Virus record (IMG/VR): IMGVR_UViG_3300015157_000027 | Coordinates: 1-14,389 of that record | Strand: one strand, 5' to 3' | Source: a virus | Lineage: Duplodnaviria; Heunggongvirae; Uroviricota; Caudoviricetes | Length of the DNA: 14,389 nt | Shown here: piece by piece, positions 2,164 to 14,389 of the stretch | Position numbering within the stretch: the first letter of the stretch is position 1 | Layout of the letters: the number at the start of each line of letters is the position of its first letter | The notes under the pieces: generated by a model | Database searches by the model: none | Told to the model about the DNA's origin: nothing | Seen by the model: only the letters and a program-made list of their open reading frames with translations | Program-made: the position numbers and the translations under genes

Positions 2164-2240
2164 TTACCTCTGAGGTAATTAAAAACCACATAAGACACGA
2201 AATCAATAGAGTTTAGAATATTTTATTACCTGATGGGTAA
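2164..2240 (-). promoter_or_regulatory. Candidate repressor-controlled promoter in front of the DUF1064 gene: two palindromes (2164-2178 TTACC-TCTGA-GGTAA; 2226-2240 TTACC-TGATG-GGTAA) flanking sigma70-like -35/-10 elements
   Basis: Read on the minus strand: TTGATT (plus 2201-2206), 17-bp spacer, TTTAAT (plus 2178-2183). One palindrome sits about 20 bp upstream of the -35 and the other overlaps the -10/+1/RBS, the same layout as the pL-like promoter at 5268-5345. Confidence 0.5.
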
Positions 2241-2277: not shown

Positions 2278-3078
2278 TTACTTGATAAATCCTGCCGCCT
2301 TTCCTCGCCTGTATTCCTCCATCAGCCACTGCGCCGGTGTTATTCCCCCAAGGGTGGCGGCGTTAGGCATGCATCCGAAACTTCGCCCTGGTGGATGGTA
2401 AACGTCTCTCCCTGTGTCCGGAGGTGTACTCATGGGCTCTGGCTTTGCCTGTATGCTGATCACCGGATCGGGTATCTGCTGTCCAGAAGCCACCTTTTTC
2501 GCCCAATCATCGAGCAGCCTGCGCGCATGTTTCTCAACCTCAATCTCGCTAAGCTGGCGCTGATACATTGCACGGCGGGTATCACATACGACCCAGTACA
2601 TAACCGGATGTCGCCACGGGAATCTTTCGGGACTACCAGGATATAAACTTTTTTCCTTGCTGTACCGGTGAAACTCCGCCATCACATCGTCAATGGTGAC
2701 GCCAAGAACCATCTTGCTGTCTTTGCACCACTTGATGAATTGCCCTGGCGACGGCCAGAACGGAGATTCACTGGCGCGGGCGTGGCGCATACCAGCAGAA
2801 ACCTGTTCACGGGTTCGGATCCCACCTTCGGCAAACGCAGCAATCCACTGCTGTTTTGCAGCGACTTCCTGCTCTGGCGTCTTCAGGTTGGTTACCACTG
2901 CCGCCGGAAACAGTTGTTTCAGCTGTTTGAAAAGGGCATCAACAAGCCTCTCTGCTGACATGTTCACCACGTTGTCATTGTTGGTGTACTGATGCTCATA
3001 ACCTGACATGCGAGAAAGGGCTTCTCCGTCACGGTTTTGTATCGCGGTAAAAACGTTGTTCACAAGAAATCCTCCCAT
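2278..3078 (-). CDS. P: Replication protein P-like DnaB helicase loader
   Basis: 266 aa; segment ...LFPAAVVTNLKTPEQEVAAKQQWIAAFAEGGIRTREQVSAGMRHARASESPFWPSPGQFIKWC... aligns by eye with lambda P (...LATFPASL...RRQWVLAFRENGITTMEQVNAGMRVARRQNRPFLPSPGQFVAWC...). Start is ambiguous: ATG at 3078 or an internal Met about 23 codons in. Confidence 0.85.
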   Translation of the reverse strand: MGGFLVNNVFTAIQNRDGEALSRMSGYEHQYTNNDNVVNMSAERLVDALFKQLKQLFPAAVVTNLKTPEQEVAAKQQWIAAFAEGGIRTREQVSAGMRHARASESPFWPSPGQFIKWCKDSKMVLGVTIDDVMAEFHRYSKEKSLYPGSPERFPWRHPVMYWVVCDTRRAMYQRQLSEIEVEKHARRLLDDWAKKVASGQQIPDPVISIQAKPEPMSTPPDTGRDVYHPPGRSFGCMPNAATLGGITPAQWLMEEYRRGKAAGFIK

Positions 3079-3875
3079 GCTTCAGGGCTGTTCCAGTGCG
3101 GAACGTTGTTATCAGGTAATGTTGATTGCTTCTGTCTGCTAATCTGCAGCCGCCTTGCCAGCTTCTGCTCCCACTGTGCCTGATGGTATGCCTTACCCTC
3201 AGCCATCCAGTAAATTCTGAACTCTGCAAGTTCCTGTGCCGTTGGCAGACTGTCCAGGTAGATCCCCTGCAATGAGCTTTTCCGAAGAAAGTCATCTGAT
3301 GGCTGCCATTGTTCATGCATGACAAATTTGCCTAATTGCCCTGGCCCACCAGGAGGAACAAAGTTATTCATCACGGCGTTGTTTGCGCCGGGGTCATGAT
3401 GCACAGAATCCCCGTTTTTTGTCCTGCTCTCCCTCTCTTGGTTAAATGACTGGTTATATGACTGGTTCTGGATCCCGTTTTTGGGATCATTCAACATCCC
3501 GTTTTTGGGATCATTCAACATCCCGTTTTTGGGTATATTCCCGTTTTCGGTAACATTACCGTTTTCGGGTTCATTGCCCCCCTCTCGGTTGCCTTTAATG
3601 TTCCCGTTTTTGGTTATATTAAGAGAGAAAACCCGCACTCTTTTTGTCGCTCCCTTTCTCTCTCCGGTATCTGAAATAAGCCCCATTTTCATGAGCGATA
3701 TAAGCCCGGCCTGCACGGTTTTTTTATTCAGGCAAGTGTCTTTAACGAGGCGTTCTATGCTGGGGTAGCAGAGGTTATATTCATCGGCTCTGTCAGCCAT
3801 CGAGAGCAGTATGAGCTTTAATGATGAGCTACCTGGATCTGTCTCCCAGGCCCAATCTGTTGCATGTCTGCTCAT
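3060..3875 (-). CDS. Replication initiator, O-like (N-terminal wHTH-like domain, central iteron-encoded repeat linker, C-terminal domain)
   Basis: Sits immediately upstream of, and overlapping, the P-like gene; contains tandem DNA iterons in mid-gene that encode a repeated peptide (PKNGMLND x2 and degenerate NGN repeats), as lambda O contains ori. Protein similarity to lambda O itself is not obvious by eye. Confidence 0.65.
   Translation of the reverse strand: MSRHATDWAWETDPGSSSLKLILLSMADRADEYNLCYPSIERLVKDTCLNKKTVQAGLISLMKMGLISDTGERKGATKRVRVFSLNITKNGNIKGNREGGNEPENGNVTENGNIPKNGMLNDPKNGMLNDPKNGIQNQSYNQSFNQERESRTKNGDSVHHDPGANNAVMNNFVPPGGPGQLGKFVMHEQWQPSDDFLRKSSLQGIYLDSLPTAQELAEFRIYWMAEGKAYHQAQWEQKLARRLQISRQKQSTLPDNNVPHWNSPEAWEDFL
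3471..3620. repeat. Candidate origin iterons: two perfect 24-bp tandem units (ATCCCGTTTTTGGGATCATTCAAC at 3472-3495 and 3496-3519) plus about four degenerate copies of the CCCGTTTT(T/C)GG core
   Basis: Direct reading of the sequence. Core has inverted arms ATCCC...GGGAT. Location inside the initiator gene mirrors lambda ori. Confidence 0.65.
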
Positions 3876-4171: not shown

Positions 4172-4186
4172 TTACCTTTGAGGTAC
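4172..4186. promoter_or_regulatory. Operator-like palindrome TTACC-TTTGA-GGTAC (one half-site mismatch) between the cro terminator and the zinc-finger gene
   Basis: Matches the ATTACC-N5-GGTAAT family; on the minus strand it is followed after 16 bp by TTGATC, a 17-bp spacer and a weak -10 (CAAAAT). Confidence 0.4.
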
Positions 4187-4190
4187 GAAT

Positions 4191-4220
4191 AGATATGAAA
4201 AGACCGCCGGGTGGCGGTCT
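4191..4220 (-). terminator. tR1-like intrinsic terminator downstream of the cro-like gene
   Basis: Stem AGACCGCC / GGCGGTCT (4201-4208 / 4213-4220) with 4-nt loop; on the minus strand the hairpin is followed by UUUCAUAUCU. Confidence 0.55.
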
Positions 4221-4241: not shown

Positions 4242-4472
4242 TCATGAGTAGAAGAAGTATGCCAGTTCTGCTTTTGAGCGCAGCCATTGTCTTGATTTAC
4301 AGGCTTTAAAAAGCCCATTCATCAATACTTTACCTGGCATTTTGCGCTTACCTGTTAAGTGAGTCTGGATATAGTGACTCGTCGTTCCGGCTTCCTGTGC
4401 GAAGGCTTCACGCTCATCCGGAGTAAGTGCAAGCCAGTGCTTTTTGAAATCGAAATGTCCGTTATCGCTCAT
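4242..4472 (-). CDS. Cro-like small HTH regulator (76 aa), first gene of the minus-strand early operon
   Basis: Divergent from the repressor gene across an operator-containing intergenic region. Sequence FAQEAGTTSHYIQTHLTGKRKMPGKVL resembles the lambda Cro HTH region ([29 protein letters not shown]) in pattern. Confidence 0.65.
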   Translation of the reverse strand: MSDNGHFDFKKHWLALTPDEREAFAQEAGTTSHYIQTHLTGKRKMPGKVLMNGLFKACKSRQWLRSKAELAYFFYS

Positions 4473-4497: not shown

Positions 4498-4571
4498 ATA
4501 ATAAATATTCACCCATAAGGTAACAAAAATCAAGGATAGTTACCTATGAGGTGCATTTACCTGTTGGGTAA
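4498..4571. promoter_or_regulatory. OR-like switch region: three operator-like palindromes (4509-4523 TCACC-CATAA-GGTAA; 4539-4553 TTACC-TATGA-GGTGC; 4557-4571 TTACC-TGTTG-GGTAA) plus a PR-like promoter for cro
   Basis: Minus-strand promoter: -35 TTGTTA (plus 4521-4526), 17-bp spacer, -10 TATTAT (plus 4498-4503); the first palindrome overlaps the spacer/-35. A PRM-type promoter for the repressor is not clearly resolvable; the repressor ORF has almost no RBS, consistent with a short-leader transcript. Confidence 0.6.
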
Positions 4572-4626: not shown

Positions 4627-5211
4627 ATGAAAAGTATCCAGGACGTCCGCAGGCAAAATCTCAACGACTTGATCGACCGTGAATTCAATGGTGTTCAGAC
4701 GCGGATGGCAGAAAAACTTGGAACTCAGGCAAATCTGGTAAACCGCTGGGCTCTTGGCAAGAAGGTTATCGGCGACCAGGTTGCGCGAAAAATTGAAGCT
4801 GCCGCCAATAAACCCCGTAACTGGCTTGATATCGATCGCTCGCTTTCTCAGGAAGGTTTTCAGCCTGTCGGCCCGAGTGATATAGGTCAGCTGGCGGCTC
4901 ACAACCTGGAACGCTGGATGAGCGAAAGCCGCGACCTTTCAACGCAGGGAAAACTACACCGCGCATCCGGCGTCGCCCAGGTGACAATCAGCCGCCTGTT
5001 AAACAATGAGGTCAGCGTTTCCATTTCCACCCTGGAGAATGTTGCATCCGCATTCGGGCGTCACGGATATGAATTACTGATTCACCCGCACGACCCCGCG
5101 ACTATCAACTATGACCGCTCGCGCTACGCATTGTTACCTGAAACAGAGAAGGCAAAGATCGAAAGTTACATTGAATTTGTCATCAACCAGAACGAAAAAA
5201 ACAAACAATAA
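4627..5211 (+). CDS. CI-like prophage repressor composed of two HTH (XRE-type) domains, no recognisable S24/LexA-like autocleavage domain
   Basis: 194 aa; HTH-like segments GVQTRMAEKLGTQANLVNRWALGKK and KLHRASGVAQVTISRLLNNE; no Ala-Gly cleavage site or Ser/Lys dyad region seen. Divergent from cro-like gene and followed by a strong terminator. Confidence 0.75.
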   Translation: MKSIQDVRRQNLNDLIDREFNGVQTRMAEKLGTQANLVNRWALGKKVIGDQVARKIEAAANKPRNWLDIDRSLSQEGFQPVGPSDIGQLAAHNLERWMSESRDLSTQGKLHRASGVAQVTISRLLNNEVSVSISTLENVASAFGRHGYELLIHPHDPATINYDRSRYALLPETEKAKIESYIEFVINQNEKNKQ

Positions 5212-5231: not shown

Positions 5232-5258
5232 AAGCCGCCTTATGGCGGCTTTTTTATT
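5232..5258 (+). terminator. Rho-independent terminator after the repressor gene
   Basis: Stem AAGCCGCC / GGCGGCTT with TTAT loop followed by TTTTTATT on the plus strand. Confidence 0.8.
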
Positions 5259-5267
5259 GCCTATTCG

Positions 5268-5345
5268 ATTACCTAACGGGTAATTTTTTTAACTCATATC
5301 TATTGACATCAAACCAGATACGCATAATTATTACCTCAACGGTAA
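5268..5345 (+). promoter_or_regulatory. pL-like early-left promoter with two flanking operators (5269-5283 TTACC-TAACG-GGTAA; 5331-5345 TTACC-TCAAC-GGTAA)
   Basis: Consensus -35 TTGACA at 5303-5308; candidate -10 hexamers CATAAT/TAATTA at 5323-5330; one palindrome lies about 20 bp upstream of the -35 and the other immediately downstream of the -10. Confidence 0.65.
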
Positions 5346-5519: not shown

Positions 5520-5819
5520 ATGAACGTTAAACAGCAGAAAAATCTTCAAAAAATCATGCTGGCATTCGACAAGGACTACCGCCTGTCAGAACAGCTATAT
5601 GACCGACAAGTTGAACTGATTGAGAGCATCCGACTTCATCAACTGTCCTCAACTTTTGACGTTGTAACAGGCAAAGGCGTTCGTCAGGAAGTACTGGAGG
5701 CTGCTAAAGACAGCCCTGAGTTCGAAGAACTGATGGATGCCTATCGGCGAGAGGCAATGGCAATTATCGCCCGCTGGGATCTGGCGGATCAGCTTGATGG
5801 GCAGAGGGACGCGGCATGA
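5520..5819 (+). CDS. Gam-like protein (99 aa), possible host-nuclease (RecBCD) inhibitor
   Basis: Start taken at ATG 5520 (RBS GGGAGGG) rather than the ORF-track 5505. Same size as lambda GamS and sits directly upstream of the exo/bet analogues; C-terminal DSPEFEELMDAYRREAMAIIA resembles lambda Gam [22 protein letters not shown] by eye. Confidence 0.5.
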   Translation: MNVKQQKNLQKIMLAFDKDYRLSEQLYDRQVELIESIRLHQLSSTFDVVTGKGVRQEVLEAAKDSPEFEELMDAYRREAMAIIARWDLADQLDGQRDAA

Positions 5820-13189: not shown

Positions 13190-14389
13190 TCATAAAATAG
13201 ATTTCGTCTTTGTAACAATAACATCTACAAAATCGCCTGCAGATATAGCTGATGGTACTGTATCTGCAAGAGTAATCTTTCCTGAAGAGATGTTTTGCAC
13301 ATCTAATAATTTATTTTCAACCCCATCCGTATATACCAATTTGACATCACTGAATGGAGGGTAATAAGTGACTGTTCCTTGGTATACATATATTTCACTG
13401 CCTGAAATTGATTTCACTACATACCTGCCCCTTACAAGATTAATTTTGATTTCAGATAAATCGGTTTTATAACAGGTAATTCCTGAACCAATGTTAGCCA
13501 TACTAATATCAGTATCACTATAATAAGTAATTGCTTTTCCTTGTTTTAAGGTGAAGTTATCTTTGCTTTTCCTTGGCAAGGATGTGCTATTTTTGTAATA
13601 TCTACCAGTTAAGCATAGCCATGAAAATGCAGTATTCGCTACATTACCACCAGAATACACAGCTAAACGAATTGCACTAACTGGAACCCCTTCATTATTA
13701 ATCCTGATCTTAATGGAAGAAATGTTAGCAACAGTAGCATATCTATGGTTAGATGAATCCCATTGCATAGAAGAAGTTATTGCTTCTGTTTGTGAAGTTA
13801 TGACATTCCCATCTCCATCTAATGCATACAGGTAAATGCGAAACGATGCCGTATCTGCTGAGAATGTAAACATATCACCATTTCTTACTGGTACATCTCC
13901 AGATTCCCATAACAACCCAAAATTCCGCATAAAAGCAAACTTAGAAGAAACTAGGTGACGGATATTATATAAACCATCTACATCTGTTTGATATGCTAAT
14001 ACACCAACTTCTCCATTGTTGGCACTGGATATAAATGGGGTGTTAGCATTTAAAGAAAACAATGTTACTTCATCGGATATATTTTCCTGAACATGAAATA
14101 CTGCATTCCCCTTGCCATTATCAGTTACCTCTACATAAGTGTAAGGTGATGGATTGTATGGTTCATTTGTATAGTAAGGAGAACTTAACCATGAAGCCTC
14201 AATTGAGTTATTCCACGTATATTCACCAAAGTTAATTATCAACTGTTGGTTAGTTGGGGATGATGGATATCGTTCAAAACGAAACCCGTAGAAGTAATTG
14301 TTATCACCTCTTTGAATATCAATTTTACCTGCCCCCTCCATAGTTCCACCATAAAACTTATTGTGGTTATGATGATATGGATTATCAGC
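13190..14389 (-). CDS. Putative tail fibre / tailspike receptor-binding protein, C-terminal part (N-terminus lies beyond the window)
   Basis: Frame is open from 14389 to the stop at 13190 (the ORF-track start at 14341 is internal). Protein is rich in N/S/T/Y/G as in beta-rich fibre proteins; GC is about 37% versus 50-60% in neighbouring genes; it is the last structural-type gene before the lysis cassette. Function inferred from position and composition only. Confidence 0.45.
   Translation of the reverse strand, partial: ADNPYHHNHNKFYGGTMEGAGKIDIQRGDNNYFYGFRFERYPSSPTNQQLIINFGEYTWNNSIEASWLSSPYYTNEPYNPSPYTYVEVTDNGKGNAVFHVQENISDEVTLFSLNANTPFISSANNGEVGVLAYQTDVDGLYNIRHLVSSKFAFMRNFGLLWESGDVPVRNGDMFTFSADTASFRIYLYALDGDGNVITSQTEAITSSMQWDSSNHRYATVANISSIKIRINNEGVPVSAIRLAVYSGGNVANTAFSWLCLTGRYYKNSTSLPRKSKDNFTLKQGKAITYYSDTDISMANIGSGITCYKTDLSEIKINLVRGRYVVKSISGSEIYVYQGTVTYYPPFSDVKLVYTDGVENKLLDVQNISSGKITLADTVPSAISAGDFVDVIVTKTKSIL

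What the first reader, a model, noticed from the sequence alone, without database searches (positions are those of the whole stretch)
4627..5211. Prophage repressor with two HTH domains and no LexA-like autocleavage domain
The CI-position protein shows two XRE-type HTH segments and lacks a recognisable S24 peptidase region. If correct, induction cannot proceed by RecA-stimulated self-cleavage and would need an antirepressor or another inactivation route; no antirepressor gene is evident in this window.
Basis: partly seen in the sequence, partly recalled or inferred. Interest (0 to 1): 0.55.

Follow-up and report, generated by a model that had tools for sequence, protein, structure and literature searches.

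The report
Known antirepressor-controlled phage repressor (phiV10 Rep)
This gene is the already-described lysogeny repressor of phiV10/epsilon15-type phages. It cannot cut itself after DNA damage and is instead switched off by a small LexA-controlled antirepressor encoded just outside this window, so the finding is correct but ordinary.

Summary
ORF 4627..5211 (+, 194 aa) has two XRE-type HTH-like helical domains and a C-terminal helical arm. It has no S24 peptidase domain and no Ala-Gly/Cys-Gly cleavage site.

- **Identity:** the protein is 100% identical to phiV10 p40, which GenBank annotates as [quoted passage not shown]. It is also identical to vB_EcoP_ZX5 ORF21, which was tested by overexpression.
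- **Solved relative:** it is a full-length, 42%-identical homolog of Salmonella phage SPC32H Rep (PDB 5D4Z/5D50). That protein has a DNA-binding domain, an HTH-like middle dimerization domain and an arm that tetramerizes and binds the antirepressor Ant.
- **The missing antirepressor:** the Ant ortholog (85 aa, 88% identical to SPC32H Ant) lies about 1.3 kb beyond the window's right end in near-identical phages. It has a conserved LexA box and a Rep operator upstream.
- **Operators:** TTACC-N5-GGTAA palindromes flank the gene as OR and OL (10 sites in the window against 0.32 expected).
- **Correction:** the window carries an intact attP, so it is the unintegrated phage arrangement, not an integrated prophage.

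Minor new point: in E. coli records Ant is labelled "hypothetical", and a Bro-N protein has been treated as the antirepressor instead.

The parts
4627..5211 (+). rep: lysogeny repressor, 194 aa. 100% identical to phiV10 p40 and vB_EcoP_ZX5 ORF21; 42% identical to SPC32H Rep.
4627..4836 (+). N-terminal HTH DNA-binding domain (aa 1-70; HTH helices about aa 24-31 and 35-43). 54% identical to the SPC32H Rep DNA-binding domain.
   Evidence: domain role taken from SPC32H Rep literature
4876..5079 (+). Second HTH-like five-helix domain (aa 84-151), the Pfam HTH_3 above-threshold match. Corresponds to the middle dimerization domain (MDD) of SPC32H Rep.
   Evidence: (5d4z TM 0.81, rmsd 2.5 A)
5080..5208 (+). 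C-terminal arm (aa 152-194) with the conserved pattern P..I.YD...YA.LP..EK.KI.S.I.FV..QN. Corresponds to the SPC32H Rep CAD (tetramerization and Ant docking).
4509..4523 (.). OR operator TCACCCATAAGGTAA (1 mismatch to TTACC-N5-GGTAA). Lies between the -35 and -10 of the pR-like promoter.
4541..4555 (.). OR operator TTACCTATGAGGTGC (2 mismatches). Its position is conserved with an SPC32H OR site.
4557..4571 (.). OR operator TTACCTGTTGGGTAA (perfect), nearest to rep.
4498..4526 (-). pR-like sigma-70 promoter (TTGTTA-17-TATTAT) driving the Cro-position gene and the replication operon.
   Evidence: consensus match only
4242..4472 (-). Cro-position gene, 76 aa (phrog_35 'transcriptional repressor', E 8.7e-13); equals phiV10 p41.
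4201..4220 (-). Intrinsic terminator after the Cro-position gene.
5232..5251 (+). Intrinsic terminator directly after rep, which makes rep a single-gene transcription unit.
5269..5283 (.). OL operator TTACCTAACGGGTAA (perfect), just upstream of the pL-like -35.
5303..5331 (+). pL-like promoter (TTGACA-17-AATTAT) for the leftward early operon (p39, p38, RecE, RecT, Xis and onward).
   Evidence: 10/12 consensus match
5331..5345 (.). OL operator TTACCTCAACGGTAA (perfect), overlapping the -10/+1 of the pL-like promoter.
4172..4186 (.). Extra operator-like site (1 mismatch) between the terminator of the Cro-position gene and the next gene.
   Evidence: homologous site in phiV10
2164..2240 (.). Two perfect operator-like palindromes (2164-2178, 2226-2240) between the P-like replication gene and the DUF1064 gene. 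The equivalent epsilon15 position holds two palindromes, one of them annotated there as a repressor-binding site.
10585..10599 (.). Operator-like site (1 mismatch) upstream of int. Conserved in phiV10, SPC32H and epsilon15.
10733..10749 (-). Intact attP core ATTGAGTGGGAATGATT, which shows the window is not in the integrated state.

Best explanation
The ORF is Rep, the immunity repressor of a phiV10/epsilon15-type temperate podophage (genus Uetakevirus). It is an ortholog of Salmonella phage SPC32H Rep. Each chain has three parts: an N-terminal HTH DNA-binding domain; a second HTH-like domain that, by homology, serves for dimerization; and a C-terminal arm that tetramerizes the protein and is the docking site for the antirepressor. 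Rep binds 15-bp palindromes (TTACC-N5-GGTAA) clustered on both sides of its gene. OR overlaps the pR-like promoter and OL overlaps the pL-like promoter, and further sites lie at other promoters, so binding shuts off lytic transcription. Rep has no S24 peptidase domain and no cleavage site, so RecA does not destroy it. Induction instead runs through the host: DNA damage cleaves LexA, which frees the LexA box in front of the 85-aa ant gene located between the tail genes and the tailspike gene, outside this window. Ant then binds Rep's C-terminal region and releases it from DNA. What is shown here: the homology, the fold, the absence of S24, the operator enrichment and placement, and the presence and conservation of ant with its LexA box in phages that carry the identical Rep. 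What is inferred from the SPC32H literature: the oligomeric state, Ant binding, resistance to RecA-stimulated cleavage, and the dimerization role of the second HTH-like domain.
For: Sequence and structure:
- Full-length match to PDB 5D50_A 'Repressor', E=4e-42. BLASTP to SPC32H rep gives 42% identity over 196 aa, E=2e-53.
- Foldseek top hits are 5d50/5d4z, described as 'Rep-Ant complex from Salmonella-temperate phage' (TM 0.81, rmsd 2.5 A over the C-terminal 100 aa), followed only by XRE HTH domains.
- The AlphaFold model is all-helical with two bundles and an arm.
- No S24 match at E<=10 and no AG/CG dipeptide.
- All 86 database homologs with Pfam hits on record carry HTH families only; most are about 194 aa, the rest truncated fragments.

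Identity with studied proteins:
- 100% identical to phiV10 p40 and ZX5 ORF21.
- Overexpressing ZX5 ORF21 abolished free phage and cut endolysin and holin transcripts by more than 99.9%. Mitomycin C induced the ZX5 lysogen to 1e9 PFU.

Operators and signals:
- 10 operator sites in the window against 0.32 expected, with 0 of 200 shuffles reaching 10.
- The sites sit at the pR- and pL-like promoters, and the three OR positions are conserved with SPC32H.
- The same motif coincides with the 'protein_bind repressor' features of the epsilon15 record.

Antirepressor:
- phiV10 p24 and the E-1246 prophage gene are 88% identical to SPC32H Ant, E=4e-56 and 1e-57.
- A CTGT-N8-ACAG LexA box lies directly upstream of ant. 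It is intact in 7 of 8 phages from four host genera; the eighth, Klebsiella phage BUCT711, has one half-site changed to ATGT. A Rep operator lies further upstream in all 8.
- Rep and Ant occur in the same phage records, 37 against 35, and in 541 against 529 of 5426 E. coli genomes.

Literature on SPC32H:
- Rep binds DNA as a tetramer, and an Ant tetramer binds two Rep dimers (PMC9638917).
- The architecture is DBD + MDD + CAD (PMC9986798).
- Ant is made after LexA self-cleavage (PMC7380047).
Against: - The window stops about 1.3 kb short of where ant should be, so ant's presence in this particular genome is inferred from relatives.
- Rep is only 42% identical to the protein that was actually studied (33% in the middle domain). 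Oligomeric state, Ant binding and resistance to RecA are therefore extrapolated.
- The primary SPC32H papers (Kim & Ryu 2013; Kim et al. 2016) are not in the held library, so I relied on secondary descriptions and on memory of their abstracts.
- For the E. coli phage ZX5, the only antirepressor tested experimentally was a Bro-N protein, and its overexpression did reduce lysogeny. A second or alternative antirepressor therefore cannot be excluded.
Confidence: 0.9

Rival explanations
1. The Bro-N domain protein (phiV10 p23, ZX5 ORF4) is the antirepressor that inactivates this repressor in E. coli phiV10-type phages, instead of or as well as the small SPC32H-type Ant.
For: phiV10 p23 is annotated 'putative anti-immunity protein' with Bro-N and a partial COG3617 antirepressor domain, and it matches Pfam Bro-N at 1.6e-21. 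Overexpressing ZX5 ORF4 (Bro-N) lowered the prophage titre from 1e9 to 1e6 and repressor transcripts by 75%.
Against: The Bro-N gene is not conserved together with Rep. SPC32H has no such gene between its gene 019 and ant. ZX5 ORF4 is only 39% identical to phiV10 p23 although the two repressors are identical. In the E-1246 prophage the Bro-N gene is a pseudogene, with ISEcp1 directly downstream. I found no LexA box ahead of p23; the only well-placed one in phiV10 is at ant. The small Ant co-occurs with Rep in every genus. The ZX5 experiment was a GST-fusion overexpression, with no binding assay.
Confidence: 0.12
2. The protein is a conventional CI/LexA-like repressor with a divergent, undetected autocleavage domain, and it is inactivated by RecA-stimulated self-cleavage.
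For: It occupies the CI position in a lambda-like immunity region, and phages of this type are mitomycin C-inducible.
Against: No Peptidase_S24 match at E<=10. The model is all-helical while S24 is a beta fold. Foldseek finds no S24 structure. There is no Ala-Gly or Cys-Gly site. The C-terminal 100 residues superpose on the solved SPC32H Rep C-terminal region, which is not a peptidase.
Confidence: 0.01
3. The ORF is not the immunity repressor but an XRE-type antitoxin or accessory regulator. This would fit database labels such as 'YdaS', or 'VapI antidote' in phage BP9.
For: A sub-threshold Pfam YdaS_toxin match at aa 21-61. One phage record labels the identical protein 'plasmid maintenance system antidote protein VapI'.
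Against: No adjacent toxin gene: rep is a single-gene unit with its own terminator. Its flanks carry clustered palindromic operators that overlap the divergent early promoters. The identical protein blocks lytic growth when overexpressed. It is a full-length homolog of a characterized phage repressor.
Confidence: 0.01

Closest known systems
Rep of Salmonella phage SPC32H (PDB 5D4Z, 5D50; Kim & Ryu 2013 J Virol; Kim et al. 2016 PNAS), with its partner Ant
   Same: Full-length homology (42% identity, E 2e-53). The same three-part architecture: HTH DNA-binding domain, HTH-like middle domain and C-terminal arm. The same genome position between OL and OR, and the same TTACC-N5-GGTAA operator half-sites at homologous positions. 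The partner Ant is 88% identical, sits in the same place (divergent from the tailspike gene) and has a LexA box. No S24 domain.
   Different: The sequence has diverged, to 33% in the middle domain and 22% in the linker. Two operator sites are seen at OL here against three in SPC32H and epsilon15. The host is E. coli rather than Salmonella. None of the biochemistry has been done on this ortholog.
phiV10 p40 / vB_EcoP_ZX5 ORF21 / E. coli O157 typing phage 9 and 10 repressors
   Same: 100% identical protein. phiV10 p40 is annotated 'putative transcriptional repressor; two helix-turn-helix motifs', and ZX5 ORF21 was shown to block lytic growth when overexpressed.
   Different: Nothing in the protein differs; only the neighbouring DNA does (about 96-99% identity, with mosaic differences elsewhere in the window).
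Lambda CI, P22 C2 and 434 repressors (HTH N-terminal domain plus S24-like autocleaving C-terminal domain)
   Same: The CI position, divergent from a cro-position gene. Multipartite OL and OR operators flank the repressor gene. The DNA-binding domain is an XRE/Cro-C1-type HTH.
   Different: No S24 domain and no cleavage site. The C-terminal part is an HTH-like dimerization domain plus a tetramerization arm. Inactivation is by antirepressor binding, not self-cleavage.
LexA-controlled antirepressor systems of coliphage 186 (Tum) and the Gifsy/Fels-2 prophages
   Same: The same logic: a non-cleavable repressor, with SOS sensed indirectly through a LexA-repressed antirepressor gene.
   Different: I did not compare either the repressors or the antirepressors of those systems with this protein or with Ant. 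From memory of the Kim & Ryu 2013 abstract, Ant was presented as structurally distinct from those antirepressors. SPC32H-type Ant also acts on the repressor's C-terminal region rather than its DNA-binding surface.

Membership tests
SPC32H-type Rep (Uetakevirus / epsilon15-like phage repressor) | Full-length sequence homology to SPC32H Rep | tested here: met
   phmmer against the PDB: 5D50_A E=4e-42, aa 1-190. BLASTP: 42% identity over 196 aa, E=2e-53.
SPC32H-type Rep (Uetakevirus / epsilon15-like phage repressor) | Three-part fold: N-terminal HTH DNA-binding domain, HTH-like middle domain, C-terminal arm | tested here: met
   AlphaFold model with helical bundles at aa 4-59 and 84-151 and an arm at aa 164-193. 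Foldseek 5d4z TM 0.81, rmsd 2.5 A. Pfam scans of the two halves. Architecture as described in PMC9986798.
SPC32H-type Rep (Uetakevirus / epsilon15-like phage repressor) | Located between OL and OR clusters of TTACC-N5-GGTAA palindromes that overlap divergent early promoters | tested here: met
   10 sites against 0.32 expected. Promoter overlap. OR positions conserved with SPC32H. The motif equals the annotated repressor sites of epsilon15.
SPC32H-type Rep (Uetakevirus / epsilon15-like phage repressor) | A cognate small Ant gene with a LexA box in the same genome | tested here: inconclusive
   The window ends about 1.3 kb before the expected site. The feature is met in phages with a 100%-identical Rep (phiV10, ZX5) and in the prophage that is 99.5% identical to the window's right end: Ant 88% identical to SPC32H Ant, with a LexA box.
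SPC32H-type Rep (Uetakevirus / epsilon15-like phage repressor) | Not cleaved on SOS induction; binds DNA as a tetramer; released by Ant binding to the C-terminal region | not testable with these tools
   These are biochemical properties, known only for SPC32H Rep.
LexA/CI-type autocleaving repressors (Peptidase S24) | C-terminal S24 peptidase domain with a Ser-Lys dyad | tested here: not met
   No PF00717 match at E<=10. All-helical model. No S24 structure among the Foldseek hits. None of the homologs with Pfam hits on record carries S24.
LexA/CI-type autocleaving repressors (Peptidase S24) | Ala-Gly or Cys-Gly cleavage site in the linker | tested here: not met
   No AG or CG dipeptide anywhere in the 194 aa.
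XRE / Cro-C1 HTH (Pfam HTH_3, PF01381) | A profile match above the Pfam gathering score | tested here: met
   Whole protein 38.5 bits against a cut-off of 23. The C-terminal half alone scores 25.6 bits. The N-terminal half alone scores 16 bits, below threshold, but it is an HTH by model and by homology to the SPC32H DNA-binding domain.

The most novel reading that the evidence does not exclude
The second HTH-like domain (aa 84-151) may keep DNA-binding activity in the E. coli phiV10 branch, besides its dimerization role. It has the better Pfam HTH_3 score, and Q107, Q118 and R123 in its HTH helices are invariant within the close family. Each Rep chain would then read two kinds of DNA element. 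A milder version: Rep also represses ant through the operator conserved upstream of it. That would put ant under a LexA-plus-Rep double lock with positive feedback once Ant appears, with the variable Bro-N protein as a second, strain-specific antirepressor.
Probability: 0.07. Interest if true: 0.4.

Novelty: already known. Interest (0 to 1): 0.1.

Why it matters
The finding adds little new biology. The non-cleavable two-HTH repressor and its LexA-controlled antirepressor were worked out genetically and structurally for SPC32H in 2013 and 2016, and this exact protein has carried the annotation 'two helix-turn-helix motifs' in the phiV10 record. The practical value is in annotation. About 10% of complete E. 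coli genomes carry this repressor (541 of 5426), and about as many carry the Ant ortholog (529), yet the listed RefSeq records call Ant 'hypothetical protein'. The one experimental paper on an E. coli member tested a Bro-N protein as the antirepressor and did not cite the SPC32H system. Carrying the Rep/Ant annotation over would correct how SOS induction of these common, serotype-converting prophages is understood.

Tried and rejected
- **Single-sequence AlphaFold model**: pLDDT 45, unusable. It was replaced by a model built on a 34-sequence alignment.
- **Primary SPC32H and epsilon15 papers:** looked up by DOI and PMC id but not held. I relied on citing papers and mark recollection of the abstracts as memory.
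- **LexA box inside the window**: none found, so the SOS input is not here. Found instead at ant in relatives.
- **S24 or cleavage-site reading:** rejected.
- **Antitoxin reading (YdaS/VapI):** rejected on context and on the ZX5 overexpression data.
- **Bro-N protein as the conserved partner:** rejected as the primary partner because it does not co-vary or co-occur with Rep.
- **Internal duplication:** a local self-alignment of the two HTH halves scored 30, a short weak match outside the HTH cores. This gives no evidence of a recent duplication.
- **Exact -35/-10 of the rep (pRM-like) and ant promoters:** attempted by eye, with no convincing assignment, so none is claimed.

Full report
**1. 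The observation**

The ORF at 4627..5211 (+) is real and encodes 194 aa. Pfam reports HTH_3 in two stretches, whole-protein E=1.2e-9. I scanned the two halves separately:
- The C-terminal half (aa 79-194) passes the HTH_3 gathering score, at 25.6 bits against a cut-off of 23.
- The N-terminal half (aa 1-78) gives only sub-threshold Cro/YdaS-type (20.6 bits) and HTH_3 (16 bits) matches.
- No Peptidase_S24 match appears even at E<=10.

The sequence contains no Ala-Gly or Cys-Gly dipeptide, the site where LexA and CI-type repressors cleave. A single-sequence AlphaFold model was useless (pLDDT 45). A model built on a 34-sequence alignment (A1) reached pLDDT 75.8. It is entirely helical: one bundle at aa 4-59, a disordered linker at 74-83, a second bundle at 84-151, and a C-terminal arm with a long helix at 172-193. 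Foldseek against the PDB returned no S24 structure.

**2. What the window is**

The surrounding genes form a lambda-like early region:
- On the minus strand: a Cro-position gene (4242..4472), a DnaT/O-like replication initiator (3060..3875) and a lambda-P-like helicase loader (2278..3078).
- On the plus strand, after the repressor gene: two small genes, a RecE-like exonuclease, RecT, an AlpA/Xis-like gene and a methylase.
- Then, on the minus strand, the integrase, the lysis genes and a tailspike gene that runs off the window's end.

The immunity region is 98.8% identical to Escherichia phage phiV10 (genus Uetakevirus, epsilon15-like podophages) and is present in 541 of 5426 complete E. coli genomes.

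The published attP core ATTGAGTGGGAATGATT (PMC9782041) is intact at 10733-10749. The best chromosomal prophage matches break exactly at window position 10733. The window is therefore in the unintegrated phage arrangement. This is a small correction to the word 'prophage' in the finding.

**3. Identity of the protein**

By tblastn the protein is 100% identical to phiV10 p40, vB_EcoP_ZX5 ORF21 and the repressors of several other E. coli phages. The phiV10 GenBank record annotates p40 as 'putative transcriptional repressor; two helix-turn-helix motifs (PF01381); similar to putative repressor epsilon15p38'.

For ZX5, overexpressing ORF21 eliminated free phage and cut endolysin and holin transcripts by more than 99.9%. 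Mitomycin C induced the ZX5 lysogen to 1e9 PFU.

**4. The solved homolog**

A search of PDB sequences gave a full-length match to 5D50_A 'Repressor' (E=4e-42) and to 5D4Z (aa 89-190). These are Rep of Salmonella phage SPC32H alone (5D4Z) and in complex with its antirepressor Ant (5D50), as the Foldseek descriptions state.
- BLASTP against the SPC32H rep gene product gives 42% identity over 196 aa, E=2e-53.
- By region, identity is 54% in the DNA-binding domain, 22% in the linker, 33% in the middle domain and 44% in the C-terminal arm.
- The model's C-terminal 100 residues superpose on 5D4Z with TM 0.81 and rmsd 2.5 A.

The literature I could read describes SPC32H Rep as follows:
- It has an N-terminal DNA-binding domain, a middle dimerization domain (MDD) and a C-terminal arm (CAD). 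The arm tetramerizes the protein and binds Ant (PMC9986798).
- It binds DNA as a tetramer in which the paired DNA-binding domains come from different dimers. An Ant tetramer binds two Rep dimers and breaks the tetramer (PMC9638917).
- Ant traps the repressor in a non-functional conformation (bioRxiv 2025.11.27.690993).
- Ant is made after LexA self-cleavage (PMC7380047).

From memory of the Kim & Ryu 2013 abstract, which is not held in the library, SPC32H Rep is not cleaved during the SOS response, and a point mutation in the LexA box of ant makes the sibling phage SPC32N constitutively lytic.

So the 'second HTH' is, by homology, a dimerization module built on an HTH-like fold. It is not a second DNA reader.

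**5. The missing antirepressor**

In SPC32H, ant (86 aa) lies between the tail genes and the tailspike gene and is divergent from the tailspike gene. phiV10 has an 85-aa 'hypothetical protein', p24, at the same place, and it is 88% identical to Ant (E=4e-56).

The prophage of E. coli E-1246 is 99.5% identical to the right end of the window. It carries the same gene (88% identical, E=1e-57) 196 bp upstream of the tailspike gene. Projected onto the window, ant would start about 1.3 kb beyond position 14389.

Directly upstream of ant there is a perfect LexA box:
- E-1246 prophage: TACTGTATAAATATACAGT.
- phiV10: TACTGTGTATTTATACAGT.
- SPC32H: TACTGTATGTTTATACAGT.

In phiV10 this is the only well-placed CTGT-N8-ACAG site. 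I aligned the ant upstream region of eight phages from Escherichia, Salmonella, Enterobacter and Klebsiella. The LexA box is intact in seven of them. In the eighth, Klebsiella phage BUCT711, one half-site is changed to ATGT. A Rep-type palindrome about 40 bp further upstream is present in all eight.

Rep and Ant homologs occur in the same set of phage records, 37 against 35 with the same genera. They also occur in nearly the same number of E. coli genomes, 541 against 529. I did not match the genome lists one to one.

**6. Operators**

The palindrome TTACC-N5-GGTAA, allowing one mismatch, occurs 10 times in the window against 0.32 expected, and 0 of 200 shuffles reach 10.
- **OR**, between rep and the Cro-position gene: 4509-4523, 4557-4571, and a two-mismatch site at 4541-4555.
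- **OL**, after rep's terminator: 5269-5283 and 5331-5345.
- **Other sites:** upstream of int (10585), after the Cro-position gene's terminator (4172), and between the P-like gene and the next gene (2164, 2226).
- **Probably chance:** two one-mismatch hits, at 5-19 and 12511-12525. The latter lies inside a coding region; I did not examine the setting of the former.

A consensus scan places a pL-like promoter at 5303-5331 (+), with an operator over its -10/+1. It places a pR-like promoter at 4526-4498 (-), with an operator in its spacer. It also finds intrinsic terminators after rep (5232-5251) and after the Cro-position gene (4220-4201).

The three OR sites are at positions conserved with SPC32H, while the central five bases vary. 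The same motif is enriched in phiV10 (14 sites against 0.65 expected), SPC32H (18 against 0.65) and epsilon15 (11 against 0.49 in the half-genome examined). It coincides base for base with the 'protein_bind: repressor (lysogeny)' features of the epsilon15 record, which also cites 'HHpred: 5d50_A' for its repressor. The operators are therefore known too.

**7. Mechanism, and what is shown against what is inferred**

Shown here:
- The homology, the fold, and the absence of an S24 domain or a cleavage site.
- The operator statistics, and the placement of operators over promoter-like sequences.
- The presence, position and conservation of ant with its LexA box in phages that carry the identical Rep.

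Inferred from SPC32H work:
- Rep binds the palindromes as a tetramer.
- RecA does not stimulate its cleavage.
- LexA cleavage derepresses ant.
- Ant binds the C-terminal region and releases Rep from DNA.

I put 0.9 on this overall account.

**8. Rivals**

- **Bro-N protein as the antirepressor.** The Bro-N protein (phiV10 p23, ZX5 ORF4) is annotated as an anti-immunity or anti-repressor protein, and its overexpression reduced lysogeny. However, it is absent from SPC32H. It is only 39% identical between ZX5 and phiV10 even though their repressors are identical. In the E-1246 prophage it is a pseudogene with ISEcp1 directly downstream. It could be an auxiliary antirepressor, which I rate at about 0.12, but it is not the conserved partner.
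- **Cryptic autocleaving domain.** Excluded by sequence and fold.
- **Antitoxin reading.** Some database labels ('YdaS', 'VapI') suggest this. It is contradicted by the operator and promoter context and by the ZX5 overexpression result.

**9. Verdict**

Interest is low. Two minor points may be useful. First, the Ant ortholog is labelled 'hypothetical protein' in phiV10, ZX5 and the RefSeq E. coli records listed, and the ZX5 study did not connect its phage to the SPC32H Rep/Ant system (zero mentions of SPC32H). Second, Ant is far more conserved than Rep between the E. coli and Salmonella phages (88% against 42%).

Noticed in passing
window 2164-2178, 2226-2240, 4172-4186, 10585-10599: Rep-type palindromes (TTACC-N5-GGTAA) also lie outside the immunity region: after the P-like replication gene, after the terminator of the Cro-position gene, and upstream of int. 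In full genomes they also sit upstream of ant, the lysis operon and the head-gene operon (phiV10, SPC32H, epsilon15). Rep may therefore control most transcription units directly, unlike lambda CI.
   Followed up: partly
window 10733-10749 (-): The attP core ATTGAGTGGGAATGATT is intact, with int on one side and the lysis genes on the other. The window is therefore a phage or circular arrangement, not an integrated prophage. Integrated copies in E. coli chromosomes break exactly here.
   Followed up: yes
L003 11373-13658 (E. coli E-1246 chromosome, NZ_CP025573.1 3096949-3099876): In the prophage closest to the window's right end, ISEcp1 carrying blaCTX-M-15 sits directly downstream of a truncated Bro-N ('anti-immunity') pseudogene. 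An ESBL gene is thus embedded in a phiV10-type prophage.
   Followed up: no
L001 20543-20800 (phiV10 p24); L008 251-508 (ZX5); L003 9970-10227: The SPC32H-type Ant ortholog (85 aa, 88% identical) is annotated 'hypothetical protein' in phiV10, ZX5 and the RefSeq E. coli records listed; the region is found in 529 complete genomes. The ZX5 paper tested the Bro-N protein as the anti-repressor and does not mention SPC32H.
   Followed up: yes
Rep (window 4627-5211) against Ant (L003 9970-10227), each compared with SPC32H: Ant is 88% identical between the E. coli and Salmonella phages, while its target Rep is only 42% identical (44% in the Ant-binding arm). The conserved arm pattern P..I.YD...YA.LP..EK.KI.S.I.FV..QN may be the preserved interface. 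Cross-reactivity between phages seems possible.
   Followed up: partly
L001 about 20484-20524 (phiV10, downstream of ant): A long, perfect 41-nt palindrome, GGAGTGCTTATATTTACCGCAAAGGTAAATATAAGCACTCC, has a Rep-type operator at its centre. It lies between ant and the Bro-N gene and could be a terminator, an operator, or both.
   Followed up: no
window 5816-6715 and 6725-7747 (+): The RecE-like exonuclease and RecT are separate genes here, as in epsilon15. The phiV10 record annotates a single 'recET fusion' (L001 29722-31482).
   Followed up: no
window 12871-13224 (-): A 117-aa ORF whose sequence looks hydrophobic (no membrane-helix prediction was run) occupies the slot between the tailspike and the holin genes. 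phiV10 and SPC32H carry O-antigen acetylase or serotype-conversion genes there. Similarity to phiV10 stops at about window position 12682, so this is a mosaic, possibly serotype-related, module.
   Followed up: no
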